NCBI GenBank assembly: GCA_000004985.1
Contig: GG738868.1
DNA: 64,000 nt
Source of the DNA: Naegleria gruberi
Taxonomy: Eukaryota
Direction: 5' to 3' (one strand)
Positions 3,320-53,946 of the stretch are shown in pieces. The first letter of the stretch is position 1. Every line of letters starts with the position of its first letter. The notes under the pieces were generated by a model. The model saw only the letters and a program-made list of their open reading frames with translations. It made no database searches and had not been told where the DNA came from. Both the position numbers and the translations under genes were made by a program.

Positions 3320-3665
3320 TTTTTTGTTAATACTTGAGGAAAATCTTAATATGTGAATTTCCTTATAAATAATGAAAGATGCTTAACTGGACACATCAAA
3401 GCTAGTTCCTCAATTAATTGAATCAATAGTCCCAACTAAACTTTGCTAAATGCTTTCACCTGGCTTTATTAATAATTACTTTTGACTTGAGTAAGCTTGG
3501 ATAAACTTGTTGATCTAAAAAAAGATTCAAATTTCCAACAAGAAAAAATACATCAACCTGGTGTTTGGTGGATCCTATTAATAATACATTTTTAAAAAAA
3601 CACTTGTACATCAATCTTATTTCCTTGTGATCAACAAGATTTAAATAATATAATACAACATCATC

Positions 3666-5104
3666 ATGGGTAACGCACCGAGTGGAGGACAACAACCTTT
3701 CCAACTTCCTGGCGCTGGAAAAAAGCAGAATAAGGACGATAAGAAAAAGAAGAAGGAAAAGAAAAAGTTTGAACAACCAGTACCAACCCGTATTGGCAGA
3801 AAAAAGAGGAAAAAGGGTCCACAAATTGCTGAAAAGCTTCCAGAAGTTACACCAGTCTCAAAATGTAAACTTAGAATACTACGATTGGAAAGAGTTAAAG
3901 ACTATCTTACAATGGAAAAAGAATTTGTTACTAATCAAACAAAACTTTTGACTGCCCAAGAAAAGAGCAAGGATATGGAAGAGGAACGTAACATGGTCGA
4001 TGAATTAAGAGGATCACCAATGGCTGTAGGAACTCTTGAAGAAATTATTGATGATAACCATGCTATTGTTTCTAGCAGTGTTGGTCCTGAATTCTATGTT
4101 TCAATCCTTTCAATTGTTGATAAGGATCAATTGGAACCTGGTTGTAGTATTTTAATGCACAATAGATATTTGGCTGTTGTTGGTATTCTTCAAGATGAAG
4201 CCGATCCAATGGTCTCTGTCATGAAAGTCGATAAGGCTCCTCTCGAATCATATTCACAAATTGGTGGTTTGGAAGATCAAATCCAAGAAATCAAGGAAGC
4301 TGTCGAATTCCCATTAACACATCCAGAACTTTATGAAGATATTGGTATTAAACCACCAAAAGGTGTTATACTTTATGGTGAACCAGGTACAGGAAAGGTA
4401 TGTAGTAATTATTTATACAACAATGTATTAATCATCATCATTATACTTATATTATTGAATATGTATAATCATATTAGACACTTCTTGCCAAAGCTGTAGC
4501 CCATCACACCAGTGCTACTTTCTTGCGTGTTGTTGGTTCCGAACTCATTCAAAAGTATCTTGGTGAAGGTCCAAAACTTGTTCGTGAATTGTTTAGAGTT
4601 GCTGAAGAATTGGCTCCAAGTATTGTATTTATAGACGAAATTGATGCTATTGGTACAAAGAGATTTGATTCAACATCAGGAGGTGAACGTGAAATTCAAA
4701 GAACTATGCTTGAATTGCTTAACCAATTGGACGGTTTCGATTCCAGGGGTGACGTTAAGGTTATCATGGCCACTAACAGAATTGATTCTCTTGATACTGC
4801 TTTGATTAGACCTGGTAGAATTGATCGTAAGATTAAATTCCCATTCCCAGATGTTAAGACAAAGAGAAAGATCTTTGAAATTCACACTCGTAAGATGAGT
4901 AAGGCTACTGATGTAAATTTGGATGAATTTATTTCCTCAAAGGATGAATTGTCTGGTGCTGACATTAAAGCTATTTGTACAGAAGCAGGTTTGTTGGCTC
5001 TCAGAGAACGTAGACTCCAAGTTACTCAAACAGACTTTACAAAGGCCAAGGAAAAGGTTTTGTACAAAAAGCAACAAGGTATTCCAGAAGGTCTTTACAT
5101 TTAA
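3666..5104 (+). CDS. RPT2: 26S proteasome regulatory ATPase subunit Rpt2 (PSMC1/S4), N-myristoylated. join(3666..4397,4478..5104).
   Basis: 'MGNAPSGG…[15 protein letters not shown]…[24 protein letters not shown]…GEPGTGK|[44 protein letters not shown]…[35 protein letters not shown]…' is near-identical to PSMC1 along its length. One 80-nt GTATGT..TAG intron splits the Walker A codon block in phase 0. Confidence 0.92.
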
Positions 5105-9856: not shown

Positions 9857-9857
9857 T

Positions 9858-11879
9858 TTATTCCACTTTTTCTTTTTGTTTGAAAAGAGAAATTATTGAG
9901 GTTCCAACCAAGACAGTCCAAGTTGGAATCATGACAACACAGAAACTGATATAGAATAGGTTTTGAGGTAGGTCAGTAATTGTGAAAAACCATTCGAGTT
10001 GACTTGAAATAGCTTCTCCAAAATAGTGTTGTCTTACAAGAATATTTACAATAATCAAATTGAATGGACAAGCTGCAAGTAAGGATACAAGCTGAACAAG
10101 CTTGGCAATAATGTTAGTTGGAAAAACTGTTGTCAAAATGCACAAAATTGATAAATAAGAGGAAAGGAAAATACACAAGGCACTCGAATAAATCATGATT
10201 GCTCCTACCATAATTCCAGAAAAAGCAATAGAAAGAGATTTGGCATATCTCCAATGGATTGGATTTGGTTTAGCTTTGAATAAATACTCGTAAATTCTAT
10301 TAACAACTGGGTAGAACAAAGTGAGAGAAGAAAGTACCAAAATTACAACTATTGAGATCCAATAAGTGGCAAATTGTTGCGAATCAAGAGCCAAATGACG
10401 AAGAGTATCCTTCAATATAATTGGTGTCAAATAAATTAAAACTCCATTAGCAAAATTAGAAATAACAAAAATGACTGCATGAGCAAGTTCTTTTTCGGAT
10501 GCAGTACTGGCATAGTAGTTTCCAATAAATTGAATAGCCAAACAACCAAGGAACATTAATAAGTTTGGTAAATAATGTTCAAATCCATAATAATGTTGTG
10601 AATCAGTAACATAGTACAAAAAGAACGATTGATGCAACTCTTCAATAAGGTTGTTCAAGCTTCTTATACTAATTTCCATAATTCTTCCCATCATGTAATA
10701 GGTATGCATGACACCAATTTTTGTAGTGTGCTGAGTAACAGAGTTAGTCAAAGTAATTGCATGAGTTAATTGTTGTCTGAACCAGGCATGTGGGCCAGTT
10801 GGGATGGAAATCAATTGATTATACCAATGGTTCAATACAATAACACTTCGTTCCATAAAAGAGTTTGGCAAATCAATTCCAAATGATCTAATCATTTCCA
10901 AAAATGCATGATGTAAATAGATAAATGCTGGTACATGATCCTTATAGTTTGGATACTGTTGCATGGTGGCATCAACATTTGGTGTTGCAGTCAGGTCAGC
11001 TTTAAAGAAAGTAGGAAGACCACCACGACCCATATTATAATGACTTTCACTCAATAAACCAGTCACAACATTGACCATGTCAAGATTTGGAAGTTCTCCA
11101 TTGACACCTTCAGTAAGAACAGCAACTTGTTGAAAATCAAATGATTCCAAATCCAAAGTAATGGCCTCTCTCATTCTACCAGTAGGAATAGCAGCAGATT
11201 TGATAAAAGCTTCTTCACCAGCCCAATTATGTTCATATCCATCACTAATAACCAAAATAATATCATGATTAAGCCATTTAACTCTTGAAATATATTTCAA
11301 CAATGCCAACGAGAAGGCCAAACTTTCAGATTTAAAATATGGAACTGTCAATATAATAGATTCCTTTCCATTACCTCTTCCTGGTCTAATAGCAATATAT
11401 AAATTTTCACCTCTCACATTTTCAATCCTATTAATATATCTTCTTTCAACACTATACTCATGTCTCTTCATTTCACTATAAAAAGGAATACTCTCAGAAT
11501 TTAAATAACTTTCAACAGCACTATAAGTTTGATTTCTAAAATCCAACTTGGCTGATCTACTATCCAATGTTTTTAATTGATTCAAAATTGAAACTCCATA
11601 ATCAGCATCTTGTTGATTAAATTCTGGTGTATGAAAAAACACAGAGAGAGCATTCTCCGAATAATAAATGTTTTTCGTAACGAAGGGCCAACATAAAAAC
11701 CATCCAATGGCTCCGATAAATAATAAATAGGAAACAATATTAAAGTATTTAAATAGGTGAAGAATAACTCTTCTCATCATGGGAACTTGTGTTGTATTGT
11801 TATTATTTTCATCAACATTAGGATCTCTTTCATGATCACCACGAGCGATCACTTCCTTCTCTTCGTCTATTTGTTCCAT
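9858..11879 (-). CDS. GPAA1: GPI transamidase component GAA1 (GPAA1)-like. It has an N-terminal TM, a lumenal M28-like domain and a C-terminal multi-TM region.
   Basis: 673-aa ORF with a true ATG at 11877-11879. The topology and size are typical of GAA1 (an early TM, a large hydrophilic domain, then a hydrophobic C-terminal third). I assign it by overall resemblance rather than a single motif. Its stop (9858) lies 1 nt from the stop of the convergent gene at 9856. Confidence 0.55.
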   Translation of the reverse strand: MEQIDEEKEVIARGDHERDPNVDENNNNTTQVPMMRRVILHLFKYFNIVSYLLFIGAIGWFLCWPFVTKNIYYSENALSVFFHTPEFNQQDADYGVSILNQLKTLDSRSAKLDFRNQTYSAVESYLNSESIPFYSEMKRHEYSVERRYINRIENVRGENLYIAIRPGRGNGKESIILTVPYFKSESLAFSLALLKYISRVKWLNHDIILVISDGYEHNWAGEEAFIKSAAIPTGRMREAITLDLESFDFQQVAVLTEGVNGELPNLDMVNVVTGLLSESHYNMGRGGLPTFFKADLTATPNVDATMQQYPNYKDHVPAFIYLHHAFLEMIRSFGIDLPNSFMERSVIVLNHWYNQLISIPTGPHAWFRQQLTHAITLTNSVTQHTTKIGVMHTYYMMGRIMEISIRSLNNLIEELHQSFFLYYVTDSQHYYGFEHYLPNLLMFLGCLAIQFIGNYYASTASEKELAHAVIFVISNFANGVLIYLTPIILKDTLRHLALDSQQFATYWISIVVILVLSSLTLFYPVVNRIYEYLFKAKPNPIHWRYAKSLSIAFSGIMVGAIMIYSSALCIFLSSYLSILCILTTVFPTNIIAKLVQLVSLLAACPFNLIIVNILVRQHYFGEAISSQLEWFFTITDLPQNLFYISFCVVMIPTWTVLVGTSIISLFKQKEKVE

Positions 11880-19502: not shown

Positions 19503-22500
19503 CTAATCAGAGTCTGTACTTGCATCTCCATAATCATCTTCCTCTTCAACCTTCATAGTTTCTTCTTCCTCAGGATCACTATCACCATTGTCATCAATAT
19601 TGTCTTCCTCCTCTTCTTCATTCTCCTCATCACTGTCAAAATCAACTCTTTTTTTAGCCTTATAATTAATCAGAGAAGGATTCATTGAAGAGGTATATCC
19701 AAAACAGAATACTTGAAAACCACCAACTCCATTCAACAACATTTGAGTTTTTTCACAAATTTCCAATTCACACCATCCTCTTTCAGCTGCCTCCTTCTTT
19801 GTTGGAGTTGGATTTTTCTTTCCTGGATTGGCACTAACTGTGAGTAAGGTTTCCTTTCTCAATTGATTTTCTGGTTCTTCCCAAAAGTCATCTGAGCTAA
19901 TTGGTAAAATACCTTCCATAGAAGGTAAGAAATAAGTATTCACAGCAGAAGTCAAATAGGAAATAGTATGGGTTGGTCTCTTGAGATTATGAATCTTGTT
20001 TTTCAAACTATCATTCACTTGATAGTTCCACATAGCTACTCTTCCAATATGTTTCTTATTGTCAAATATGGATTCCAACTGTTCAACCAAAAATCTTGCA
20101 ATTTGAATGTCAGGATTGTTGAGTTGAATTTCTTTCAATAATTCAATAAATTGTTGAGGATTGTGAATTATTAATTTAAGAGTTGATTCTGAGGATACTT
20201 CATTAGTAATTTCTGTTATTCTACTATTATACTTTTTTCTTGATGGACCTTTGATCGATTTGATATATTCATCCAAAATGTCCAACAAGTGAAATCGTCC
20301 ATTTCCCAATTCTTCAATGATTTGATCAGTCAAATTGTATTTTAACTTGAGTATTTTCAAGCAATTAGCTGCAAACTCCGGTTCCAGTAGAATTTCTTTC
20401 AACTTTGCAAATCTAACCCTAGAAACGTTTGGATTAAATAGCTCAGTATGTAAAACTTTTTCCATAAATTGTAAACTTCTGAGCATTGATGTTTCATGTG
20501 AAACAAACAATTTTTGTTGTCTACTATATTCATAAAATTCTAAAATGTCATCTTGAATAATATGAATGCATTCAAGTTTAAGAAATTGACCAATTGCCAA
20601 AATTGAGGAATGAACAATGCCAGGTCCAAGAGGCATATTAGATTCCAAAACAATAAAATTGTAGTCATCCACTCTATTTCCATTAGATATAATCCATTTC
20701 TTATATCTATTGATATATTTTGATTCTGTTACAATGGTTACACAATTTGGAATTGAATCTGAATGCAGCTTCTTCACGAAATTAGAATAGAGATAAGGTT
20801 TCCAAAATTTTCCTCTTGGTCTTGATTTGATAAATAGAGGTTTCAATCCATCACTAGTGAGCGTTGAAATCTGTTTCAGTTTAGTCAAAAAGCTTTCTTC
20901 ATTATAGGAAATTTCTAGAATTTCATCATCTCTATTAAACTTGACCAATATTTCGTTATCATTCGAATAGTTTCTATCCATTACTTTAACAGGAATTGTG
21001 TATCTATCTCTCTTCTCGAATTTGAATTTCAACAAGGCATCGTTATGTGAGCAAAATGATTTTTGTTTTTCTTGCTTTTTTGCTTTCTTCTTTTCCTTCT
21101 TCTTCTTTTCCTTCTTTTCAGGGACAGGAGGTCTTAAATCAGTTACACTTTCAGATTCTTTATCTGGAAGATCTAATTTACATTCTTCCAATCTTTGTGG
21201 GAATGGATATTTGTCTTCAATGATTACCTCACCAATTGATGATTTCTTATTTTGGTACTTTGTCAATAGTTGTTTAACATTTTTGTGTAAACCAAAACTC
21301 AATTCTTCCCATGATTGGACAGTTTCCTCAAATTGAACACTAAAATCATGTTCAAAATCTTCCACTGCTTGCACAATATCTAGAATTATCTTTTCCTTTG
21401 ATTTGTCCTTTTCCTCAAAATTTGGATTCAAAGAATAGCACAAAGACTGGACCCACTCTAATGGAATGATAGTATCACTTCTCAGGTATGATTCTTGCAA
21501 AATAGATGTTAATTTGGCTTGGAATCTTTTAGTAAGAGTGTTGAAACAACTTAAAAAGCTCTCTAATTTTAAAAAAAACCCACTGTTAAAATACCCAAAG
21601 CATTGCTTCCACCTCTTGATTCTCTGTGGTACTTTCAATTGGTTTAGTTTCTTTTGTTTTGTTTTTTTCAATTCAGGTACAATTTCTTTCCTTTGAAAAC
21701 CTAATACAATAGGATTGGTGTAATAGGATGAAAACTTCTTTACGAAAGAATCTATTGTCTTTTCTTTTAAGGCATCCACATCAGGTATATTTTCTTTCAA
21801 TCCATCAATAACACTTTGCAATTTCTTCTGAATTTTCTGGATACATGACTTCAATTCTTTCACGAACTTTAATGGAAACTTTTGTACTTTCTTAATAGTT
21901 GTATTAGACAGTACAACAATAGCCATGTCTCTTAATTGACTAATATTGTTTGATATAATCTTTTTTCTATTGTTTTCAATAATTGATTGTAAATTGGAAA
22001 CAAAGTGATCTCTCATTTCAACGTTGTTAGGTGGTGGAAAACAAACTAAATCAAAATTATCATATAATCCCTTTACAAAATCATACTTGTTTTCCATATC
22101 AATTTCATTGGTATTGATATTATTGGCTTCTAATTCCAAGTCGAAAGGGACATCATCTAGCTCACAATCGAAATGAAAAGCAAGTTGCTTTCCATATGAT
22201 TCTTTCATGGGTTTGAAAACGTTTTTTGTCATAACCTCATTCTTGTAGCTCTCCTCATTCATTACCTTATTATTAGCTAAGATTGCAATGTAAGGTTGAT
22301 GGGTTTGTTGTGGTTGATGGATACCATAATCCCACACCTTTTGTACAATACCATCATCAAGAATGATCCTTTCATTTTCAATACCACACAATAACAAGCA
22401 GGTGTCATATAAACTTTCTCTTATCAAATGCTTGTAGGATACATTTTCATGGACATTTACTGGATCAGTAGTTTGCTTTTCATCATATCCAGGCATATCT

Positions 22501-23243
22501 CTGAGAATTATTTTGCTCCTTTGAAGGAACTTGGAAGGGATTTTCAAGATTAACTTCTTAATATGGACTTTCTTAAAGTTGGTGTCAGCATCAAACTCTA
22601 AAATCTTGTTACGTGCTTTAGTGGCCAGAAATTCATAAAGTTCCTCTTCAGAATTTCCATTGTCAATAATATAATTTGATTGATTGTCAATTTCACAATC
22701 TTTCAAAGTATCAGTAGCAAGTTGTTCAACTTTCCTTGCACACAACTCTTGTTGTGAACAATACTGAACAGTCAAACTGTAAGTTGGTGAATACTCAACA
22801 TCAACAACTGTACGTGTCAAACCCTTTCCAAACTGAACAGCAGAAGGAAGAGGAGCATTAGTCATTTTGAAATCAGACAACAATTGATCAATGATGAAGG
22901 ATTTACCATATCCTGGCTTACAAAACAGGGTAACCACAACTTTGCCCCGAAAATCCTTGATGATTCCCTCCATAGACTCTAAATGTTCAGAACACATTGT
23001 CCTAATGGATCCCTTCTTATTGGAACCGTTTAAATGTTCCTTGTAGAATGTTTTAACCTTATCAAAATCCTCAGTTTCTGTCTTCATTTGTTTATCCTCC
23101 TGCTGTTCATTGCCATTCTCTGGTGATGGGTCCATTTTGATTTTCTTGGGTGCTTGTTCTGTAGATGATGAAGCAGTTGCAGCAGCAGCAGCAGTAGCAG
23201 TAGTAGCACTCGGAGAGTGAGTAATCTTTCTCTTTCGAAGCAT
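19503..23243 (-). CDS. Large (1246 aa) TRAFAC-type GTPase of a septin/AIG1(GIMAP)-like 'DMPG' family, with a poly-Ala/Thr N-terminus and an acidic C-terminal tail.
   Basis: True ATG at 23241-23243. G1 is 'LFCKPGYGKSFIIDQLLS', a G2-like segment is 'GLTRTVVDVE', and G3 is 'ILRDMPGYDEK' (hhhD.PG, as in septin DTPGFG or GIMAP DTPGLFD). The C-terminus '…DSDEENEEEEEDNIDDNGDSDPEEEETMKVEEEDDYGD' is strongly acidic. Confidence 0.6.
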   Translation of the reverse strand: MLRKRKITHSPSATTATAAAAATASSSTEQAPKKIKMDPSPENGNEQQEDKQMKTETEDFDKVKTFYKEHLNGSNKKGSIRTMCSEHLESMEGIIKDFRGKVVVTLFCKPGYGKSFIIDQLLSDFKMTNAPLPSAVQFGKGLTRTVVDVEYSPTYSLTVQYCSQQELCARKVEQLATDTLKDCEIDNQSNYIIDNGNSEEELYEFLATKARNKILEFDADTNFKKVHIKKLILKIPSKFLQRSKIILRDMPGYDEKQTTDPVNVHENVSYKHLIRESLYDTCLLLCGIENERIILDDGIVQKVWDYGIHQPQQTHQPYIAILANNKVMNEESYKNEVMTKNVFKPMKESYGKQLAFHFDCELDDVPFDLELEANNINTNEIDMENKYDFVKGLYDNFDLVCFPPPNNVEMRDHFVSNLQSIIENNRKKIISNNISQLRDMAIVVLSNTTIKKVQKFPLKFVKELKSCIQKIQKKLQSVIDGLKENIPDVDALKEKTIDSFVKKFSSYYTNPIVLGFQRKEIVPELKKTKQKKLNQLKVPQRIKRWKQCFGYFNSGFFLKLESFLSCFNTLTKRFQAKLTSILQESYLRSDTIIPLEWVQSLCYSLNPNFEEKDKSKEKIILDIVQAVEDFEHDFSVQFEETVQSWEELSFGLHKNVKQLLTKYQNKKSSIGEVIIEDKYPFPQRLEECKLDLPDKESESVTDLRPPVPEKKEKKKKEKKKAKKQEKQKSFCSHNDALLKFKFEKRDRYTIPVKVMDRNYSNDNEILVKFNRDDEILEISYNEESFLTKLKQISTLTSDGLKPLFIKSRPRGKFWKPYLYSNFVKKLHSDSIPNCVTIVTESKYINRYKKWIISNGNRVDDYNFIVLESNMPLGPGIVHSSILAIGQFLKLECIHIIQDDILEFYEYSRQQKLFVSHETSMLRSLQFMEKVLHTELFNPNVSRVRFAKLKEILLEPEFAANCLKILKLKYNLTDQIIEELGNGRFHLLDILDEYIKSIKGPSRKKYNSRITEITNEVSSESTLKLIIHNPQQFIELLKEIQLNNPDIQIARFLVEQLESIFDNKKHIGRVAMWNYQVNDSLKNKIHNLKRPTHTISYLTSAVNTYFLPSMEGILPISSDDFWEEPENQLRKETLLTVSANPGKKNPTPTKKEAAERGWCELEICEKTQMLLNGVGGFQVFCFGYTSSMNPSLINYKAKKRVDFDSDEENEEEEEDNIDDNGDSDPEEEETMKVEEEDDYGDASTDSD

Positions 23244-23847: not shown

Positions 23848-25146
23848 TTAATCATGAGACTTTTCATAATTATTATTTTTCTTAATAATTTGAATGGTAC
23901 TAGTTTGGGCCGAGGAAATTTTAGCATGTGCTACCTCAACCAACTTCAAAAGTAATTTCAAATGCATGTATTCGAAAATCTTGACAATTTCCTCATTTTT
24001 ACATTGGAATTTGGAAATGAATGGAATTGGATAGTCAGCAGAAACGATATTCTCAAAGTTTCCATCGCCCGTCTCTAAAATATCCCATTCATAGAACAAT
24101 TTCAATACATTGGCTTTGGTGATTTCAATTGGAACTTCATCTTGAGTTCTCATATCAAGTATTGGAACACTCTTCTCAATGTAATCTCTGAAAATGGAAT
24201 GGCCATCAATTTTAGAGTAGCAATAAATGCACGAGGTGGAGAATTCAGAGGAAATATAGGATGGAATCGATGTATAATAGTCAAGCATGGTTTCCTTAGT
24301 TTTAGATTCTGTTGAGAACATGGTTGGATTGTTAATAGGAATTGGAACAAACACAGCATGAGGAGCATCAAATTCTTGTGCAACTTGTTCAAAAACTGTC
24401 TTGAATAAATATTCAGAAAATTCAAACTTCTCAATGAGTTGCTTTTCGTTATCGAATTTGAAAAATCCTGGCATATCTTGAAGATAGATCTTTTCAAATT
24501 TTTCGACATCATCAATTGGGATCTTGGATACATCCTTAGTGAATGAATTGAGATAGTCTTTGGACGGATTTTTAGCATCAGAGAGGATCTTGTAGGCCAT
24601 TTCCATGAAACTTGCACTACCTTCCTTAAATGGAACTCGTTTTGATTTGAGTGTTTTAAGAATTCTATTCAAGATGGTTGATTTTCCACCAGATGCAATG
24701 GAGACACCAGCCAAAGTGATTTGATTATCACCAATCATCTCCAATTGAGTAATAATCTGTTCCTTCAGCATTTCACAATTAAAATCAATGTGTAACAGTT
24801 CTGTTGTTTCCTTTTTGAGAGATTGTACCATTACATTTTCAACTGAGTGAACTACTATTCCATCCAAAGTTTCAATTCTTGCATTGAACAGAATATTTTC
24901 TGGAACAATAATAGAACATCTAGCTTCCTTGGTTTCTTGATCATAACCATCTCCTGCCACAAAGAGCTTTTTTACAATTTTCTTATCGAGATAGCTTACA
25001 ACTACTTTGAAAGCTGTGTGGGCAGTTTCATTCACGATAGTGTTAAACTTGAATTGAAATATAACCTTGGCTAATCTGGTAATATGATGTGAAGGGTTGA
25101 ATCTTGGTGGTGTAACTTTGGTTTCGGCTGAGTATTGGTTTCCCAT
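23848..25146 (-). CDS. Small (432 aa) paralogous TRAFAC-type 'DMPG' GTPase. It is predicted to be N-myristoylated (MGNQYS).
   Basis: True ATG at 25144-25146. G1 is 'GVSIASGGKSTILNRILKTL' (compare septin GESGLGKSTLIN) and G3 is 'IYLQDMPGFFKF'. It shares the P-loop plus DMPG[FY] arrangement with the 1246-aa neighbour. Confidence 0.6.
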   Translation of the reverse strand: MGNQYSAETKVTPPRFNPSHHITRLAKVIFQFKFNTIVNETAHTAFKVVVSYLDKKIVKKLFVAGDGYDQETKEARCSIIVPENILFNARIETLDGIVVHSVENVMVQSLKKETTELLHIDFNCEMLKEQIITQLEMIGDNQITLAGVSIASGGKSTILNRILKTLKSKRVPFKEGSASFMEMAYKILSDAKNPSKDYLNSFTKDVSKIPIDDVEKFEKIYLQDMPGFFKFDNEKQLIEKFEFSEYLFKTVFEQVAQEFDAPHAVFVPIPINNPTMFSTESKTKETMLDYYTSIPSYISSEFSTSCIYCYSKIDGHSIFRDYIEKSVPILDMRTQDEVPIEITKANVLKLFYEWDILETGDGNFENIVSADYPIPFISKFQCKNEEIVKIFEYMHLKLLLKLVEVAHAKISSAQTSTIQIIKKNNNYEKSHD

Positions 25147-25378
25147 CTTGTATTTTTTTAATGTTTTGAGTTTTGTTTTTGAATGTCAAAACGTGTTGCT
25201 ATTTAAATGAAAATCATGATATTCGAAACGTGAAGTGCTTCTGATTGGATGGTGGTTGTAAACTTCAATACGAAATGGATTCCTTCTTATTCAATGCAAA
25301 TTTAAAAATACTTTCACGTTTGATTAAATTTGAAAATATATTAAGGGAAAAACTGTAGATATATCAGCTTACTAAGCA

Positions 25379-25500
25379 GAACAAGCTTGGCATTAATGTT
25401 AGTTGGAAAAACTTTTGTCAATTTGCTCAAAATTGATAAATAAGAGGAAAGGAAAATACACAAAGCACTCGAATAAATCATGATTGCTCCTACCATAATT
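25379..25500 (+). repeat. 122-bp intergenic copy (about 93% identity) of GAA1 coding sequence (10094..10215), in the same plus-strand orientation. It is a gene-fragment duplication.
   Basis: Direct alignment: 'gaacaagcttggca(t/a)taatgttagttggaaaaact(t/g)ttgtcaa…aaaattgataaataagaggaaaggaaaatacacaa(a/g)gcactcgaataaatcatgattgctcctaccataatt' in both places. The flanks are unrelated. Confidence 0.7.
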
Positions 25501-25526
25501 TTATTGATATTAAATAGTTAATTTTT

Positions 25527-26261
25527 TTATTGAGATGATTGCCTTAATATTTCATTTGCCTTATTTGAAATTTCATAATCTCCAAATCCTTTAATTGCTA
25601 TATATGGAAAATCAGAAGAAATACCATATTTAACTAGCAATATATCAGCTCCATTTGCATGTTCGCTATTTAGTTTTTTCGCACTTCTTGTTGGTTCAAA
25701 AGCAATTTGTCTCATTTTGACCTTTTTTTTAAGTTCACTTATCTTGAAAATCGTTTGAATTTTCTCATCCAATTTGGAATGATTGCAATTATATCCCAAA
25801 TAATACAAATTCTTAATTACTATTGATTCAGTTTCCCTCATAGCTTCGTTTACAGGTGTTTCTTGCGTTTTCTCTACATTCTTCTGATTTTCTTCATCAT
25901 CAGTTTCCTTTCCATGTGTTTCACCATTTTTCTTGACATTCTTCAATTTAGATTCGTCCACATATTCCTGAATTGGTACAATAGCAGCAGAACTTGTCGA
26001 ATGATCAACGCTCATCGTATTATAGTTGGTATTTTGATTTTCCTTATTGAATTCTTTTGATTCTTCATCCACTTGACTAGGATTTCTACACAATTTACCA
26101 ACTACAAGTGCAGGTTGATTGAAAACCAACAATGCCATCAACATCATTTGTAAATAAACAATATATGGAAGTAAGCCAACCAATAAGAAACCCAAAAAGA
26201 AGGCAACAAGTACATTTCGTTGATCCAAACATGTCTGAAAAAGATAGAGTGGTAGAAACAT
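25527..26261 (-). CDS. Single-pass membrane protein A (244 aa): an N-terminal TM, a low-complexity linker and a conserved 100-aa C-terminal domain of unknown family.
   Basis: True ATG at 26259-26261. The TM segment is 'VLVAFFLGFLLVGLLPYIVYLQMMLMALLV'. The C-terminal domain is 'SIVIKNLYYLGYNCNHSKLDEKIQTIFKISELKKKVKMRQIAFEPTRSAKKLNSEHANGADILLV…FPYIAIKGFGDYEISNKANEILRQS'. Confidence 0.55.
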   Translation of the reverse strand: MFLPLYLFQTCLDQRNVLVAFFLGFLLVGLLPYIVYLQMMLMALLVFNQPALVVGKLCRNPSQVDEESKEFNKENQNTNYNTMSVDHSTSSAAIVPIQEYVDESKLKNVKKNGETHGKETDDEENQKNVEKTQETPVNEAMRETESIVIKNLYYLGYNCNHSKLDEKIQTIFKISELKKKVKMRQIAFEPTRSAKKLNSEHANGADILLVKYGISSDFPYIAIKGFGDYEISNKANEILRQSSQ

Positions 26262-26649
26262 GATCTATTGTAAGTTAAAGAGAAATAATGAACTGGCCTT
26301 CTCATTGAGAAGAATTTGCTTGAATAATTTCCATTTTCCAGTTTCTGATGTTTCGTCGGCCATAGAATCGGCCCTTTTCACAAAACACAACATGATTGGG
26401 AAGAGATTGGCCAATAAACAAAGTAGGAAATGTGAGAAACCATATTGTTGAGTGGTTCTGAAGGAAAGTGTCTCAAGTTTCGTATAGGTCATCATACGAG
26501 AATATAACTTTAATTTTTTTCAATACCTCTCTTCCAAACGTGATTCAAATATTTTGATTTATTTTCATACCTTTCTTCCAAACGTGATTTTGAAAAACGT
26601 GTAAGTTTACAATCCACCAGTATTCGAAACGTGATTCACTTTAAAAAAA

Positions 26650-27339
26650 ATGCTCAAATTTATTAGTGGAGTTGTTTGTGGAAGTGGAATTACAACACTA
26701 GCCCAGTTCTATGTATCGTCAACCAAATTAGAGAGTCCACCAGGCAGTGAAATTTCACAAGTTGAACCTTTACATGTTGTGATGAATGATTCAACTCCAT
26801 CACCCAGTCATTCATTGGCAATTCCAAGTACGGATTCATCTCTAAATGTTATAGGATTGACTTTGGGAGGAAATTTTGTTTTGATTTGGGTGGTGTTGTG
26901 GGAAGTGGGTAAAATCTTATTTGGTAAGAAGAACGAGAAAAGGGAAATGAGAAAGGAAGAAGCTCAACAAGACGAAACAACAAAACTGAATAATTCTGAA
27001 GGAAAAATTGAAACTGAATCAAGTATCATTAAGAATTTGTATTATTTGGGATATAATTGCAATCATTCCAAATTGGATGAGAAAATTCAACAGATTCTCA
27101 ATACTAATCAACTTGAAAAAAAGGTCAAAATGAGACAAATTGCTTTTGAATCAACGAGAAGTTTGAAAAAGCCAACAAGTGAACATGCGAATGGAGCTGA
27201 TATATTGCTAATTCCTTCTGGAGATTGTCTTTTTATGGATATTCCATATATAGCAATGAAAGGATTTGGAGAATATGAAATTTCAAATAAGGCTATTGAA
27301 TTATTGAAACAATCTGTACAAATAAATTCAAATTATTGA
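26650..27339 (+). CDS. Single-pass membrane protein B (229 aa), an inverted head-to-head paralogue of protein A with the same C-terminal domain.
   Basis: The C-terminal domain is 'SSIIKNLYYLGYNCNHSKLDEKIQQILNTNQLEKKVKMRQIAFESTRSLKKPTSEHANGADILLI…IPYIAMKGFGEYEISNKAIELLKQS', about 70% identical to A over 100 aa. The TM segment is 'LTLGGNFVLIWVVLWEVGKILF'. The two start codons are 388 bp apart. Confidence 0.55.
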   Translation: MLKFISGVVCGSGITTLAQFYVSSTKLESPPGSEISQVEPLHVVMNDSTPSPSHSLAIPSTDSSLNVIGLTLGGNFVLIWVVLWEVGKILFGKKNEKREMRKEEAQQDETTKLNNSEGKIETESSIIKNLYYLGYNCNHSKLDEKIQQILNTNQLEKKVKMRQIAFESTRSLKKPTSEHANGADILLIPSGDCLFMDIPYIAMKGFGEYEISNKAIELLKQSVQINSNY

Positions 27340-28184
27340 AGATTATTCTGGGATGAACACAAAAAACGAGTAAAGCATGTTAATGGTGGAAGATTGATGA
27401 TGGAAATGGCTTTATATAATAAGGATGAGGTATTAAGCCATTTTTTGATATTGTTCAACAGTAATAGTTTTCTCTCGTTTATCGGAGCCGGACAGATATT
27501 AATGTCATTGAATTTTATTAAGGATTCCCACATGAAAACACTAACTCATGTTAATTGCTGACTGCTGACGAATATATCAGCAGGTTCCATCATCACATGG
27601 ACATTCACATAAGAACATGTCGTATTAATTGATGATACAACCAGTGAAGTGTTATGGTTGTTAGACGTAAAAAAGATTAACATAGAAAATTCATCTTCTT
27701 TATCTTCTAATTGAATTCATTCTTTGAATATTATTCATATTGGTTTGTTGTATTCTTTGCATGGTCTGATTATGTGTACGAATATTATTCATATGAGTTC
27801 TATGATTACTTTCATTGGTTCTTCTGATGGTTTCATTGGTTCTCCTGATAGTTTCTTGGGTTATTTAATTACTTTGAGAGAACAGCCAAGTCACAAAGCA
27901 TGGACACAACAAACCAGGTGCTTTTGGAACTTGTGACACTATTCATCAAACTTTAATTTGAGTGAGTTACTAAACTTTATCTTCACATTTATCGGAAACA
28001 GTGCAACCAACCAAACAATTGGATTTGTGCAAGTATTGTAAAGTGCGTATCCAAAACCAAGTTGACCAATAGAAGGACAACCAGGTTCTTCCGATGTTAC
28101 AATCACTAGTTTTGAAGATTACATTTCGCGACTCATAAATCGCCTTCAAAGCTGAATAAGGGAAAATTGTTTCTTTCAAAAAAA

Positions 28185-30077
28185 ATGTCTTCACTGCATA
28201 CTACTAAGAAGGAAACCAAACCAACAAGAAGACCTCTATCTTCAGCAGCTAAGAGATTACTTGAAGATTTGAAACAATTAAATCGTCAAAGTGAGCTCAA
28301 ATACATATCTGCTCAACCACTGTCTAATAATTTATTTGAATGGCATTGTAATCTGTATGGAAATGAAGAATCCATGTATAAGGAGTGTTGTTATCATTTC
28401 ATTATCAAGTTTCCAAAAGATTATCCTCACAATCCACCACAAATTGAAGCATGTTCTGATTTGTTACATCCACAAGTTTACAATAGAAAAGTATGCTTGG
28501 AATTGACTCAACAGAAGGAAGGCACCGAAGAGAATGCAGATGGATGGAGTTGTTCATATACTGTATTTTCAATTCTAATGCAATTGCAATCTTTCTTATT
28601 CGATTCCAAGGTCTCTAATAGACCAATGATTAAAATTGAGCAAAAAGATGCATACAATGTAAAATGCAGCAAATGTGGGCATGTACCAAGAGATGGTAAC
28701 ATATTTCCATATCATGAAATGAATTCCATTTGTTTCTCAGAGTTAAAAAAGGAATTGAGGAATTCTAGACCATCTAAATCAAGTAATAGGAAAAAGGAGA
28801 GAAGTAATATTGTAATTATTGAAAATGAAGAAGATATTGAAAAGATGTACTCAAATCAATCAGGACAATCCACTAGTTCTGTTCCAATCAAGAATGGAAA
28901 TACAATTTCCAAACAAGTACTTTTTCACATTTTCAAATTCTTGGAAAAATCAGAATTGGATTCGACCATGTTTAAAGTTTGCAAGGAATGGAAGGAAATT
29001 TCTCAACATCCTCTCTTTGGTAATAGAGAAAGAATTTGTTACTTTACAAAACAACCATGCAGAGATGAAGAAACCATTTTAGGATATGGTGTCGAACCAA
29101 AGTTTACAAAAACTGGAAGATTGATTAATATTGATTCACCTTATGAATATCTATCTTTTCATTCGTTTAGAAATTTGAACGTGAGAACTAGTGTTTGGAA
29201 TATTTCCTTCCAAAATTGGATTCCAATTCCAGTATTTACAATTCAAATTGGAAATGAATTGAAAAATGTGGAAGAATATTTGTTTAACCTATTTAAGGAT
29301 TGTGTATCAGAAATATATTACTTTCTTCAAAGTGATTCAACAGTTGAATTTCAATCTCTTGATTTGTTAGGTAAAATGATGAACTCTATAATTATTAACA
29401 TTCTCAGAAATCAAAGTCATGCATCTGTCAAAGCACTTGATGCCTACATCAATTTACACAGATGGTTAATTATGTTATGTGAAAAGTATCCAAATGTACT
29501 TTTACTCATTGATGAGAAAATTGAAAAATTCATCCAAGATGAAGAATTTAGAAGTAAGGAACATGTCCCTGCCCTTGGAGAATTCCTCTGCTTACTCTCA
29601 GTTTCAGAAAAGTTCACTTGGGATGAGATGGCACCTGCTATTATTAAGGAATCTCTTGATAGAGGAAGTTTGTGGGGTGTCTTTTCAAATGAAAAATTGA
29701 AAGATGTGATTGAATATCATTTGGAGGAAGATAAGGAAAGAGAACGAATGATTAATACATTCGAGGCAACAAAATCTAATCTGCATAATTTAGCTTTCCA
29801 TAGTTTCCTAATTAGATATTTCAGAATGAAAACTAGAGTTGAAACTGCTGAATATTATGATAGAAATTACTTGACTCCATATATTGTAAATTCAAATGAG
29901 AAGGATCAAGAGAGATTGAGAAGTGCTCTTGTGGAAATTCAATCCAAGATTATTAACTATTATGAATTCTTCAAATATGTTCAAAATGTTGAATTGGATG
30001 AGATTTCAATCATGTTAAAATTAAGAGTTGCCATGAAGAATATGAAAAGAAGAGGATATTATGAAGAAAATAAATAG
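28185..30077 (+). CDS. Ubiquitin-conjugating (UBC/E2) domain protein with a C-terminal extension that contains an F-box-like motif (630 aa).
   Basis: The E2 core is '…AAKRLLEDLKQL…LFEWHCNLYGNEESMYKECCYHFIIKFPKDYPHNPPQIEACSDLLHPQVYNRKVCLEL…WSCSYTVFSILMQLQSFL' (HPN-like loop, active-site Cys, conserved Trp). An F-box-like 'QVLFHIFKFLEKSELDSTMFKVCKEWKEISQHPLF' follows. The true ATG is at 28185. The track start at 28167 is TTG. Confidence 0.65.
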   Translation: MSSLHTTKKETKPTRRPLSSAAKRLLEDLKQLNRQSELKYISAQPLSNNLFEWHCNLYGNEESMYKECCYHFIIKFPKDYPHNPPQIEACSDLLHPQVYNRKVCLELTQQKEGTEENADGWSCSYTVFSILMQLQSFLFDSKVSNRPMIKIEQKDAYNVKCSKCGHVPRDGNIFPYHEMNSICFSELKKELRNSRPSKSSNRKKERSNIVIIENEEDIEKMYSNQSGQSTSSVPIKNGNTISKQVLFHIFKFLEKSELDSTMFKVCKEWKEISQHPLFGNRERICYFTKQPCRDEETILGYGVEPKFTKTGRLINIDSPYEYLSFHSFRNLNVRTSVWNISFQNWIPIPVFTIQIGNELKNVEEYLFNLFKDCVSEIYYFLQSDSTVEFQSLDLLGKMMNSIIINILRNQSHASVKALDAYINLHRWLIMLCEKYPNVLLLIDEKIEKFIQDEEFRSKEHVPALGEFLCLLSVSEKFTWDEMAPAIIKESLDRGSLWGVFSNEKLKDVIEYHLEEDKERERMINTFEATKSNLHNLAFHSFLIRYFRMKTRVETAEYYDRNYLTPYIVNSNEKDQERLRSALVEIQSKIINYYEFFKYVQNVELDEISIMLKLRVAMKNMKRRGYYEENK

Positions 30078-35422: not shown

Positions 35423-35495
35423 GTACCCTTGGCTCAATTGGAAGAGCATCGGCCTACGGAGCCGGGGGTTGTGGGTTCGAGTCCCACAGGGTATA
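35423..35495 (+). tRNA. tRNA-Arg(ACG): tRNA-Arg (anticodon ACG), 73 nt, no intron.
   Basis: Manual cloverleaf fold: acceptor GTACCCT/AGGGTAT (G1-U72 wobble); D-arm GCTC-AATTGGAA-GAGC; anticodon arm TCGGC-CTACGGA-GCCGG with U33 and anticodon A34-C35-G36; variable loop GGGTT; T-arm GTGGG-TTCGAGT-CCCAC; discriminator A. Confidence 0.85.
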
Positions 35496-51733: not shown

Positions 51734-53946
51734 AATGTTGGTCAAGAAATCTAGTGGAAGTCTCAGACAATTAAAACTCAATCCGTTGATGAGGAGTTCT
51801 GCATTAATTGTTGGTCAACCATCATCTTTCTTGGATGTACCTGTATATTCTTCTGTGCCAGGTGAGTTTTAATTTTCGGATGATGATGATTTAATTCGGA
51901 ATTTTTCTAGAATCTTTTTATACAAAATTGTTTTTAAAGAGAATGTTCCATACATCTACACTTTTAAAGGCATATAAAGTTAGTCCTTCAAAATTAGCTA
52001 GATTAGAATATGAAGCTCAAACATCAAATGATATGAATAGAAAAGCTGAATATTTACAAGCTTTGTGTGATTTGGAACAATATCAATTGGTAACTCAACT
52101 TGTAGATAATGGAAACTATTCATTGGATCATCCATTGATTAGAACTTCTTACAAAATTGCTTTGGAAAGAATTGGAGGTGTCAATCAATCGGACCTCTCT
52201 AGAACTTCATTGCATCAAACAATTTTCAATCAACAGCCTCAATATCATCAACCACAACAACAACAACAACAACCACAACAATCATATTATCCTCCTCCAG
52301 ATTATCAACAATATTCCAATAATTATCAATCACCTCAACCAGTCCTTCCTCAAAAATTAGTTGTTACTATGGATGATTCCTTCTTCTCCAGATTTAACAA
52401 AGTCAATATGAATAGAGCTATTTGGTCAATGCTTTTTAGTGCATCTATTCTCTTGGTTTTCTTCTATTTAACATTTTACTCTTCCGATCCATCCAAACAA
52501 AAACAAGGTGGAGGTGGAATAGGTTCAATGTTTGGGCAAACTACCTATAAACCAATTACAAATGTTGAAACAAGATTTGATGATGTCAAAGGTATTGATG
52601 AATGTAGAGGCGAATTGGAAGAAATTGTTGATTTTTTGAAAAATCCAGAAAAGTTTAACAAATTGGGTGGTAAACTTCCTAAGGGTGTTCTCCTTGTAGG
52701 TAAACCTGGTGTTGGTAAGACCCTCCTTGCCAAGGCTATTGCTGGTGAAGCTGGAGTTCCTTTCTTCTTCTGTTCAGGATCTGAATTTGACGAAATGTTT
52801 GTCGGTGTTGGTGCTAAACGTATTAGAGAATTGTTTGCTGCAGCAAGAAAGCAAGCACCTTGTATTATCTTTATTGATGAAATTGACTCTCTTGGTGGTA
52901 AAAGAACAGCCAGAGATCCATTCTATTCTAAACAAACACTCAATCAAATCCTTTCGGAAATGGATGGTTTCAAATCAAGTGAAGGAATCATTGTTATCGG
53001 TGCTACTAACTTGTTAGATTCTCTTGATAAGGCTTTAATTAGACCTGGAAGATTTGATAGACATATTGAAGTTCCTCTTCCTGATTTGAAAGGTAGAAAG
53101 GATATTTTGAGTTTGTACTTGAAGAAAGTACCAATTAATCCAGCTGTAAATATTGACACAATTGCCAAAAAGACAACAGGATTTACTGGAGCTGATTTAG
53201 AAAATCTTGTCAATGTTGCATCGATAAGAGCATGTACAAAGAATAAGGAACAAGTTAGTAATGATGATATGGATTATGCCTTCGATAGAATTGTTATGGG
53301 TATTGCAAGAACATCTAGTATTAATTTGATGAATGAAAAGGATAAGGAAATTACTGCTATTCACGAATGTGGACATGCTTTAGTTGTCTTACTCAATCAA
53401 AAGAATCTTACTCATAATAAGGATAATCTTCACAAGATCACTATTATTCCTAGAGGTAGTGCCCTTGGTTTCACAGCATCTTTGCCTGAACGAGAGGTTC
53501 ATCACATGTCTAAACAACAATATCATCAAATTATAGATAAGGCTCTTGGAGGTGTTGTTGCTGAGGAAATTTGTTATGGAAAGGATTATGTCACAAGTGG
53601 TTGTACATCAGATTTACAACATGCTACAAATATTGCCAGAGCTATGGTTACAAGATTTGGTATGAGTGAATTGGGATTAATCGATTTTACTGAAGAATCA
53701 GGTTCTATGTATCAAAAGGGTCCTGAGTTCTCTCCAGAAACCAAGAGATTAATTGATATTGAAATTCAAAAGATTGTCAATGGTTCTTATGAAAGAGTTA
53801 AAAAGATGCTTAAGGAAAATGAACCTCAATTGAGGAAGCTTGCCCACGAGTTGGTCAAGTATGAAACCTTATCAGGAAAGGAAGTTTTAGATATTTTGGA
53901 TGGAAAAGAAGTTACTCGTTCCATTGCTGGTGAAGTTGATTATTAA
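51734..53946 (+). CDS. YME1: Mitochondrial inner-membrane i-AAA protease YME1 (FtsH family) with a predicted presequence. join(51734..51860,51911..53946).
   Basis: The AAA module '[26 protein letters not shown]…[14 protein letters not shown]…[24 protein letters not shown]' and the zinc site '[10 protein letters not shown]' are FtsH/YME1 hallmarks. The 127-nt exon 1 '[42 protein letters not shown]' is basic and hydroxylated and lacks acidic residues. It joins through a 50-nt GTGAGT..TCTAG intron. Confidence 0.85.

What the first reader, a model, noticed from the sequence alone, without database searches (positions are those of the whole stretch)
25379..25500. 122-bp fragment of GAA1 coding sequence duplicated into an intergenic region 15 kb away
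Positions 25379..25500 are about 93% identical to 10094..10215, which lies inside the C-terminal transmembrane-coding part of the GAA1 gene. Both copies are in the same plus-strand orientation, and the flanks are unrelated. The copy lies between the GTPase-2 promoter and the 3' end of TM gene A. It would be included, in the GAA1-sense orientation, in gene A's 3'UTR if that transcript extends 30-150 nt past its stop. Nine substitutions over 122 nt show the event is not very recent. It could be a footprint of ectopic repair or template switching. It could also be a captured pseudo-exon or a 3'UTR element that happens to share sequence with GAA1.
Basis: seen in the sequence. Interest (0 to 1): 0.55.

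Follow-up and report, generated by a model that had tools for sequence, protein, structure and literature searches.

The report
Stray GAA1 gene fragment in Naegleria
A 127-base piece of the GAA1 gene of the amoeba Naegleria gruberi has been copied into the gap between two other genes 15 kb away, where it appears to be a decaying, non-functional scar of DNA repair or replication: real, but ordinary.

Summary
The duplication is real. Window 25374..25500 matches 10089..10215 over 127 bp with 7 mismatches and no gaps (94.5% identity, E 4e-53). There are two copies in the 64 kb, and identity drops to background at both ends. The window is Naegleria gruberi. The donor lies in the intact, intron-less GAA1 gene (NAEGRDRAFT_67688, minus strand 9858..11879) and covers codons 556-597, a transmembrane stretch inside the Pfam Gaa1 domain. 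The copy sits, in GAA1-sense orientation, in the 380-bp gap between the stop of NAEGRDRAFT_49159 ("gene A") and the start of NAEGRDRAFT_58069 ("GTPase-2"). Comparison with N. fowleri GAA1 shows that 6 of the 7 differences arose in the copy. They put S, K, K and N into a hydrophobic helix and change Q596 to L; dN/dS is about 1. The copy has no poly(A) tract, target-site duplication, terminal inverted repeats or RNA structure. Gene A's stop overlaps an AATAAA and a second AATAAA abuts the patch. By published N. gruberi 3'-end rules the mRNA should therefore end before, or within about 20 nt of, the start of the patch. The best reading is a neutral relic of a local DNA-templated patch insertion. 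I could not count genome-wide copies, check expression, or check another strain. Interest is low.

The parts
25374..25500 (-). Copy B: a 127-bp patch copied from GAA1 codons 556-597, in GAA1-sense orientation on the minus strand. It lies in the intergenic gap between gene A (NAEGRDRAFT_49159) and NAEGRDRAFT_58069.
   Evidence: blastn gives 127 bp, 7 mismatches, 0 gaps, E 4e-53. Boundaries are sharp.
10089..10215 (-). Copy A, the donor: the segment of the GAA1 coding sequence that encodes ...IMVGAIMIYSSALCIFLSSYLSILCILTTVFPTNIIAKLVQL..., a C-terminal transmembrane region.
   Evidence: The homologous segment is present in N. fowleri GAA1 and in homologue P0009, so it is ancestral in GAA1.
9858..11879 (-). 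The GAA1 gene (GPI transamidase subunit): a single 673-aa ORF, EFC44502.1 / NAEGRDRAFT_67688, intact.
   Evidence: Pfam Gaa1 PF04114, E 4.5e-48, profile positions 2-496 of 497. Exact match to the N. gruberi protein. 60% identical to N. fowleri FDP41_012253.
25341..25496 (-). An incidental 51-aa ORF (MVGAIMIYSSALCIFLSSYLSILSKLTKVFPTNINAKLVLLSKLIYLQFFP). It starts at the ATG that is Met557 of GAA1 and runs 9 codons past the patch.
   Evidence: It is not in the protein collection. An open frame is expected under neutrality with P = 0.75.
25527..26261 (-). Gene A (NAEGRDRAFT_49159; annotated model 205 aa, longest ORF 244 aa). Its stop codon TAA is at 25529..25527, 27 nt upstream (in sense) of the patch.
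   Evidence: No Pfam hit.
25526..25531 (-). AATAAA hexamer overlapping gene A's stop codon, a 'dual-use' stop and poly(A) signal.
   Evidence: The rule comes from PMC11529991.
25500..25505 (-). A second AATAAA hexamer. Its last A is the first base of the patch.
23848..25146 (-). The patch lies 228-354 nt upstream of its ATG.

Best explanation
Copy B is a non-functional gene fragment. A 127-bp stretch of the GAA1 coding sequence was copied as DNA from the donor 15.3 kb away on the same chromosome. It was pasted, in the same orientation, into the short gap between two unrelated genes. The most likely route is a templated patch insertion: a broken end or a stalled nascent strand transiently invaded or annealed to the nearby GAA1 sequence, copied about 127 nt, and then returned to its own locus. 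This corresponds to synthesis-dependent 'filler DNA' at a double-strand break, or to replication template switching of the FoSTeS/MMBIR type. GAA1 stayed intact and under selection, while the copy has been drifting. What is shown: the duplication, its sharp edges, its direction (GAA1 to intergenic), the neutral pattern of change, and the absence of retro-element or transposon hallmarks. What is inferred: the repair/replication mechanism, and the lack of function.
For: (1) The match is 127 bp with 7 mismatches and 0 gaps (E 4e-53), and there are only two copies in 64 kb.
(2) Identity falls from 94.5% to background (28-36%, null 28 +/- 5%) immediately at both ends, and gapped flank alignments are no better than shuffles.
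(3) The donor is intact. GAA1 is one ORF with a full-length Pfam Gaa1 match.
(4) The segment is ancestral in GAA1, because N. fowleri GAA1 carries the homologous stretch.
(5) Six of the 7 nucleotide differences are derived in copy B (C580S, I581K, T584K, I591N, Q596L). They lower the hydropathy of the second half of the segment.
(6) The patch has dN/dS of about 1.1.
(7) The fragment is internal to the CDS, ending 228 nt before the GAA1 stop. It has no A-tract, no target-site duplication and no terminal inverted repeats.
(8) It has no RNA structure; z-scores are +1.6 and +1.4.
(9) It has no Rfam hit.
(10) Donor and copy are in cis, 15.3 kb apart and in direct orientation. For a randomly placed insertion in a roughly 41-Mb genome (size from my own knowledge) this has a prior of about 7e-4, which favours a local DNA-based mechanism.
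(11) No protein other than GAA1 among 5.8 billion clusters shares even 5-residue words with the copy's ORF.
(12) It is the only CDS-to-intergenic fragment found in this window by tblastn of all ORFs of at least 100 aa.
Against: The pre-insertion allele is not available, so junction microhomology, the signature of template switching, could not be examined. Genome-wide copy number could not be measured because the rest of the N. gruberi genome is not in any searchable collection. The proximity argument therefore carries an ascertainment bias, since only a 64-kb window was visible. The one related-strain contig I found (L001) ends 175 bp short of the patch. No expression data were available, so lack of function is inferred only from 7 substitutions. 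The first 73 nt of the patch carry only one (synonymous) change against six in the last 54 nt (P about 0.02, post hoc). That could hint at constraint on the first helix.
Confidence: 0.68

Rival explanations
1. The patch is the remnant of a larger segmental duplication of the GAA1 3' region, an unprocessed pseudogene. Later deletions trimmed it on both sides until only 127 bp remained.
For: The orientation and cis location fit a local duplication. Intergenic DNA in this neighbourhood is dynamic: a roughly 540-bp indel separates NEG-M from a 96-98% identical strain only 2 kb away.
Against: This needs two independent deletions that left no residual GAA1 similarity on either side. The whole intergenic gap is only 380 bp. 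The two reading frames around it are undisturbed.
Confidence: 0.12
2. The patch has been exapted. One possibility is that the 51-aa ORF, a single-pass membrane micropeptide or an upstream ORF of NAEGRDRAFT_58069, is expressed. Another is that transcription across the patch yields RNA complementary or identical to GAA1 mRNA that feeds RNAi or otherwise couples the loci.
For: The ORF starts at an ATG with A at -3 and G at +4, and it keeps the first hydrophobic helix unchanged at the protein level: codons 557-579 carry one synonymous change only. The skew of changes towards the second half has P of about 0.02, post hoc. N. gruberi has RNAi genes (my own knowledge).
Against: An open frame is expected by chance (P = 0.75). 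dN/dS is about 1. The skew is not significant once clustering of the changes is allowed for (4 of 7 lie within 14 nt). There is no poly(A) signal after the ORF until an ATTAAA at 25162. There is no RNA structure. No such protein appears in any database.
Confidence: 0.07
3. The patch is part of gene A's mRNA, either as a 3'UTR element or as an unannotated terminal exon.
For: It lies 27-153 nt past gene A's stop, on the same strand and in sense.
Against: Two AATAAA signals precede it, one overlapping the stop codon. In N. gruberi cleavage is 15-20 nt downstream of AAUAAA and 3'UTRs are very short: median 39 nt, or 22 nt with stop-overlapping signals (PMC11529991). The annotated model stops at 25527. 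The paralogue at 26650..27339 has no such sequence downstream of it.
Confidence: 0.08
4. The patch is a dispersed repeat or mobile element that carries a captured GAA1 fragment, or it is an RNA-mediated retrocopy, or it is an assembly artefact.
For: None positive. Genome-wide copy number is untested.
Against: There are only two copies in 64 kb, with no terminal inverted repeats, target-site duplication or A-tail. The fragment is internal to the CDS rather than 3'-terminal. A misassembly or chimeric clone would give a junction that continues into the other locus, not a 127-bp island with 5.5% divergence flanked on both sides by unique sequence.
Confidence: 0.05

Closest known systems
Templated insertions ('filler DNA') at double-strand-break repair junctions, and replication template switching (FoSTeS/MMBIR)
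   Same: A short patch (tens to hundreds of bp) is copied from an intact donor elsewhere, often nearby in cis. Its boundaries are sharp, it carries no transposon or retro-element hallmarks, and the synthesis can be error-prone.
   Different: Those events are usually recognised at the breakpoints of larger rearrangements or in experimental or cancer genomes, with microhomology at the junctions. Here no accompanying rearrangement is visible, and the junction microhomology cannot be assessed without the empty-site allele. This resemblance is a reading of the anatomy, not a demonstrated membership.
Gene-fragment (unprocessed, partial) pseudogenes from small segmental duplications
   Same: A piece of coding sequence sits in non-coding DNA, has lost constraint, and accumulates non-conservative replacements.
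   Different: At 127 bp, or 42 codons, with no flanking gene sequence, it is far shorter than typical duplicated pseudogenes.
Processed pseudogenes and templated-sequence insertion polymorphisms made through RNA intermediates
   Same: Both are ectopic copies of transcribed sequence, and the copy is in the sense orientation of a gene.
   Different: There is no poly(A) tract and no target-site duplication. The fragment is internal to the CDS and ends 228 nt before the stop. The donor lies only 15 kb away in cis, which RNA-mediated insertion does not predict.

Membership tests
Templated patch insertion (DSB filler DNA / FoSTeS-MMBIR template switch) | A short contiguous copy of a sequence that is still intact elsewhere | tested here: met
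   127 bp with no gaps. The GAA1 donor ORF is intact with a full-length Pfam match.
Templated patch insertion (DSB filler DNA / FoSTeS-MMBIR template switch) | Abrupt boundaries, with flanks unrelated to the donor's flanks | tested here: met
   Flank identity is 28-36% against a null of 28 +/- 5%. Local alignment scores equal those of shuffled sequence.
Templated patch insertion (DSB filler DNA / FoSTeS-MMBIR template switch) | Microhomology between the recipient site and the donor at both junctions | not testable with these tools
   This needs the empty-site allele. The only related-strain contig (L001) ends 175 bp short of the patch.
Processed pseudogene / retrocopy | Includes the mRNA 3' end with a poly(A) tract | tested here: not met
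   The patch covers codons 556-597 of 673. In sense it is followed by AGTAAGCTGATATATC, not an A-run.
Processed pseudogene / retrocopy | Target-site duplication flanking the insert | tested here: not met
   There is no direct repeat at the two junctions. The nearest direct repeat, an 11-mer at 25359-25369 and 25640-25650, is offset from the junctions and is compatible with chance.
Transposable element / dispersed repeat | Multiple copies with shared termini | tested here: inconclusive
   There are only two copies in the 64-kb window and no other protein sharing words with it. The rest of the genome could not be searched. Metagenome, viral and prokaryote-genome pattern scans gave only chance hits or none.
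Transposable element / dispersed repeat | Terminal inverted repeats or other element termini | tested here: not met
   No inverted repeat pairs the two ends of the patch.
3'UTR element of gene A | Lies upstream of the mRNA cleavage/poly(A) site | tested here: inconclusive
   AATAAA hexamers at 25531-25526 (overlapping the stop) and 25505-25500 predict cleavage at about 25512-25480 under the published N. gruberi rules (PMC11529991). No transcript data were available.
Structured non-coding RNA | Stable or conserved secondary structure, or an Rfam match | tested here: not met
   Fold z-scores are +1.64 and +1.37. The only Rfam hit in the window at gathering threshold is a tRNA elsewhere.
Protein-coding small ORF under selection | Purifying selection (dN/dS below 1) and homologues | tested here: not met
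   dN/dS is about 1.1, based on 7 changes. There is no homologue other than the donor. Statistical power is low.

The most novel reading that the evidence does not exclude
The captured GAA1 helix has become something new. One version is a 51-aa single-pass membrane micropeptide or upstream ORF that begins exactly at GAA1's Met557, keeps the first helix intact and has a remodelled basic tail. The other is a sense or antisense RNA source that links expression of GAA1 to the neighbouring lineage-specific genes. Either would be a caught-in-the-act example of gene or regulator birth from a repair scar.
Probability: 0.06. Interest if true: 0.55.

Novelty: new member of a known kind. Interest (0 to 1): 0.2.

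Why it matters
On its own it matters little. It is one clean, datable example of a short coding fragment copied in cis into intergenic DNA in a compact protist genome. If a whole-genome survey found many such patches in Naegleria, they would give a direct read-out of which break-repair or template-switch pathways operate in this deep-branching eukaryote. They would also show how often coding fragments are seeded next to promoters and poly(A) sites, which is raw material for new small ORFs. For annotation, the fragment should be flagged as a GAA1-derived pseudo-fragment so that it is not mistaken for an exon or a second GAA1.

Tried and rejected
Comparative data for the copy:
- Exact-protein look-ups of GAA1, gene A, its paralogue and the 'GTPase' found no indexed contigs.
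- The paralogue's near-identical relative led to an ENA metagenome contig from a 96-98% identical strain (L001). It ends at window 25675, 175 bp short of the patch.
- A protein search with the 51-aa ORF returned nothing.
- A search with the 'GTPase' and GAA1 concatenated returned only GAA1 itself.
- Degenerate DNA pattern scans of JGI metagenomes, IMG/VR and GTDB genomes gave two chance bacterial hits or none.

Ideas rejected:
- Filler at the junction of the gene A/paralogue inverted duplication. That duplication is much older: dS 0.44 against 0.05 for the patch.
- Gene conversion into an old GAA1 pseudogene. There is no residual flank similarity.
- A structured RNA.
- A MITE or other transposable element.
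- The clustering of substitutions and the skew towards the second half of the patch were tested and are not convincing (P = 0.08 and 0.02, both post hoc).
- The supplementary 3'UTR tables of PMC11529991 are not held.

Full report
OBSERVATION. The repeat is real. Aligning the two regions and running blastn of the window against itself gives one match: 25374..25500 vs 10089..10215. It is 127 bp long with 7 mismatches and no gaps (94.5% identity, E 4e-53). No third copy exists in the 64 kb. Identity collapses to background at both ends: 28-36% in register, against a null of 28 +/- 5%. Gapped local alignments of 300-bp flanks score no better than shuffled sequence.

WHERE WE ARE. Exact look-ups place the window in Naegleria gruberi, on a scaffold of 427,589 bp.
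- The 673-aa ORF at 9858..11879 on the minus strand is EFC44502.1 / NAEGRDRAFT_67688. It has a full-length Pfam Gaa1 match (PF04114, E 4.5e-48, aa 157-657). It is 60% identical to N. fowleri FDP41_012253.
- The duplicated segment is GAA1 codons 556-597, a hydrophobic C-terminal stretch.
- Copy B lies on the same (minus) strand between two genes. Upstream is 'gene A' (NAEGRDRAFT_49159, ORF 25527..26261; the annotated 205-aa model ends at the same stop).
However, all three genes are on the minus strand, so 'GAA1-sense' means minus.

DIRECTION AND FATE.
- The segment is ancestral in GAA1. N. fowleri GAA1 and a more distant homologue carry the homologous stretch.
- Codon by codon against N. fowleri (L004), six of the seven nucleotide differences are derived in copy B: C580S, I581K (two changes), T584K, I591N and Q596L.
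- The single synonymous difference (GCC/GCT, codon 567) probably changed in GAA1.
- The replacements put lysines and asparagine into a membrane helix and lower its hydropathy.
- Nei-Gojobori dN/dS for the patch is about 1.1.
- The 51-aa ORF that survives (25341..25496, starting at GAA1's Met557) is not evidence of function. With six substitutions, the chance of not creating a stop codon is 0.75.
- Neither that ORF nor anything sharing words with it, other than GAA1, is in the 5.8-billion-cluster protein collection.

WHAT IT IS NOT.
- It is not a retrocopy. The fragment is internal to the CDS and ends 228 nt before the GAA1 stop. It is not followed by an A-tract and has no target-site duplication.
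- It is not a recognisable transposon. It has no terminal inverted repeats and no further copies in the window.
- It is not a structured RNA. Fold z-scores are +1.6 and +1.4, and the only Rfam hit in the window is a tRNA elsewhere.
- It is not filler from the event that made the head-to-head gene A/paralogue pair. That pair has dS 0.44, against 0.05 for the patch.
- It is not an assembly artefact. A 127-bp island with 5.5% divergence, embedded in unique sequence on both sides, is not what a collapsed repeat or chimeric clone produces.
- It is the only CDS-to-intergenic fragment in the window by tblastn of all ORFs of at least 100 aa.

THE 3'UTR IDEA. On the minus strand an AATAAA at 25531-25526 overlaps gene A's TAA stop. 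A second AATAAA at 25505-25500 ends on the first base of the patch. Direct-RNA work on N. gruberi (PMC11529991) reports three relevant findings. AAUAAA is the dominant poly(A) signal. It sits about 15-20 nt upstream of the cleavage site. The median 3'UTR is 39 nt, and 22 nt for stop-overlapping 'dual-use' signals. By those rules gene A's mRNA should end at about 25512-25506, or with the second signal at about 25485-25480. That is before the patch or within its first 20 nt or so. This is an inference from motifs; no transcript data could be reached.

MECHANISM (inferred). The relevant features are these: an intact donor in cis 15.3 kb away, the same orientation, a short contiguous patch, sharp edges, and no RNA or transposon hallmarks. 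Together they point to DNA-templated copying during break repair or replication, that is, 'filler DNA' or a FoSTeS/MMBIR-type template switch. For a randomly placed insertion in a roughly 41-Mb genome (size from my own knowledge), landing within 15 kb of the donor has a prior of about 7e-4. This argument is weakened by the fact that only one window was visible. Four of the seven changes lie within 14 nt (P = 0.08, post hoc). Some may therefore date from error-prone synthesis at the time of insertion, so divergence is a poor clock here. A trimmed larger duplication cannot be excluded. Junction microhomology cannot be judged without an empty-site allele.

WHAT COULD NOT BE DONE. I could not obtain genome-wide copy number, expression, or presence in another strain. 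A contig from a 96-98% identical strain (L001, ENA ERZ929261) covers window 25675..29396 and stops 175 bp short of the patch. Pattern scans of metagenome, viral and prokaryote collections found only chance hits or nothing.

VERDICT. This is a real, well-bounded GAA1-derived pseudo-fragment, most likely a neutral scar of local templated repair or replication. It is a new instance of a known kind of event and of low interest by itself. The residual novel reading, an exapted micropeptide, upstream ORF or RNA, is not excluded but has no positive support beyond a post hoc skew of substitutions towards the second half of the patch.

Noticed in passing
window 26265..26267 (minus strand), gene A / NAEGRDRAFT_49159: In NEG-M an in-frame TAG separates a 76-aa upstream ORF (26265..26495) from the 244-aa gene A ORF. 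In the 96%-identical metagenome strain (L001) the codon is TCG and the ORF is continuous (at least 273 aa, starting MTYTKLE...). Gene A may be N-terminally truncated or decaying in the reference strain. The annotated 205-aa model starts even further downstream.
   Followed up: partly
window 27391..28027 vs L001 1750..1842: A roughly 540-bp indel lies just downstream of the gene A paralogue (NAEGRDRAFT_67696). The reference strain has about 636 bp where the related strain has about 92 bp. So the intergenic DNA of this neighbourhood is structurally dynamic. No second copy of the extra DNA is present in the window.
   Followed up: partly
window 25527..26261 (-) and 26650..27339 (+): This is a head-to-head pair of lineage-specific paralogues with no Pfam hit and no homologues outside N. 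gruberi-like sequences. Their C-terminal roughly 128 codons are related (DNA 85% over 305 bp; dS 0.44, dN 0.24), but their N-terminal halves are unrelated.
   Followed up: partly
window 9857..9862 (-) and 25526..25531 (-): Both GAA1 and gene A end in a stop codon that overlaps an AATAAA hexamer (GAA TAA A and CAA TAA A). This is the 'dual-use' stop/poly(A) arrangement reported for 11-13% of N. gruberi genes (PMC11529991).
   Followed up: partly
window 25359..25369 and 25640..25650: An exact 11-nt direct repeat, ATATATCAGCT, occurs twice: once 4 nt from the patch's distal edge and once inside gene A's coding sequence (the ...GADIL... codons). About 0.17 such 11-mers are expected by chance in 700 bp, so it is probably coincidence. 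It would be worth a look if an empty-site allele becomes available.
   Followed up: no
window 3654..5101 (+) and 51895..53943 (+): These are distant paralogous genes, about 38% amino-acid identity over about 195 aa, with a 75%-identical 89-bp DNA stretch (52993..53081 vs 4760..4847). They are unrelated to the finding.
   Followed up: no
window 35423..35495 (+): A single tRNA-Arg (ACG) gene. It is the only Rfam hit at gathering threshold and the only ARAGORN hit in the window.
   Followed up: no
window 19503..23243 (-) and 23848..25146 (-): Two adjacent orphan proteins, NAEGRDRAFT_49157 (1246 aa) and NAEGRDRAFT_58069 (432 aa). Both carry a P-loop-like motif (GYGKS / SGGKST) followed by DMPG[YF], and neither has a Pfam match. 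They may be a lineage-specific family of GTPase-like proteins.
   Followed up: no
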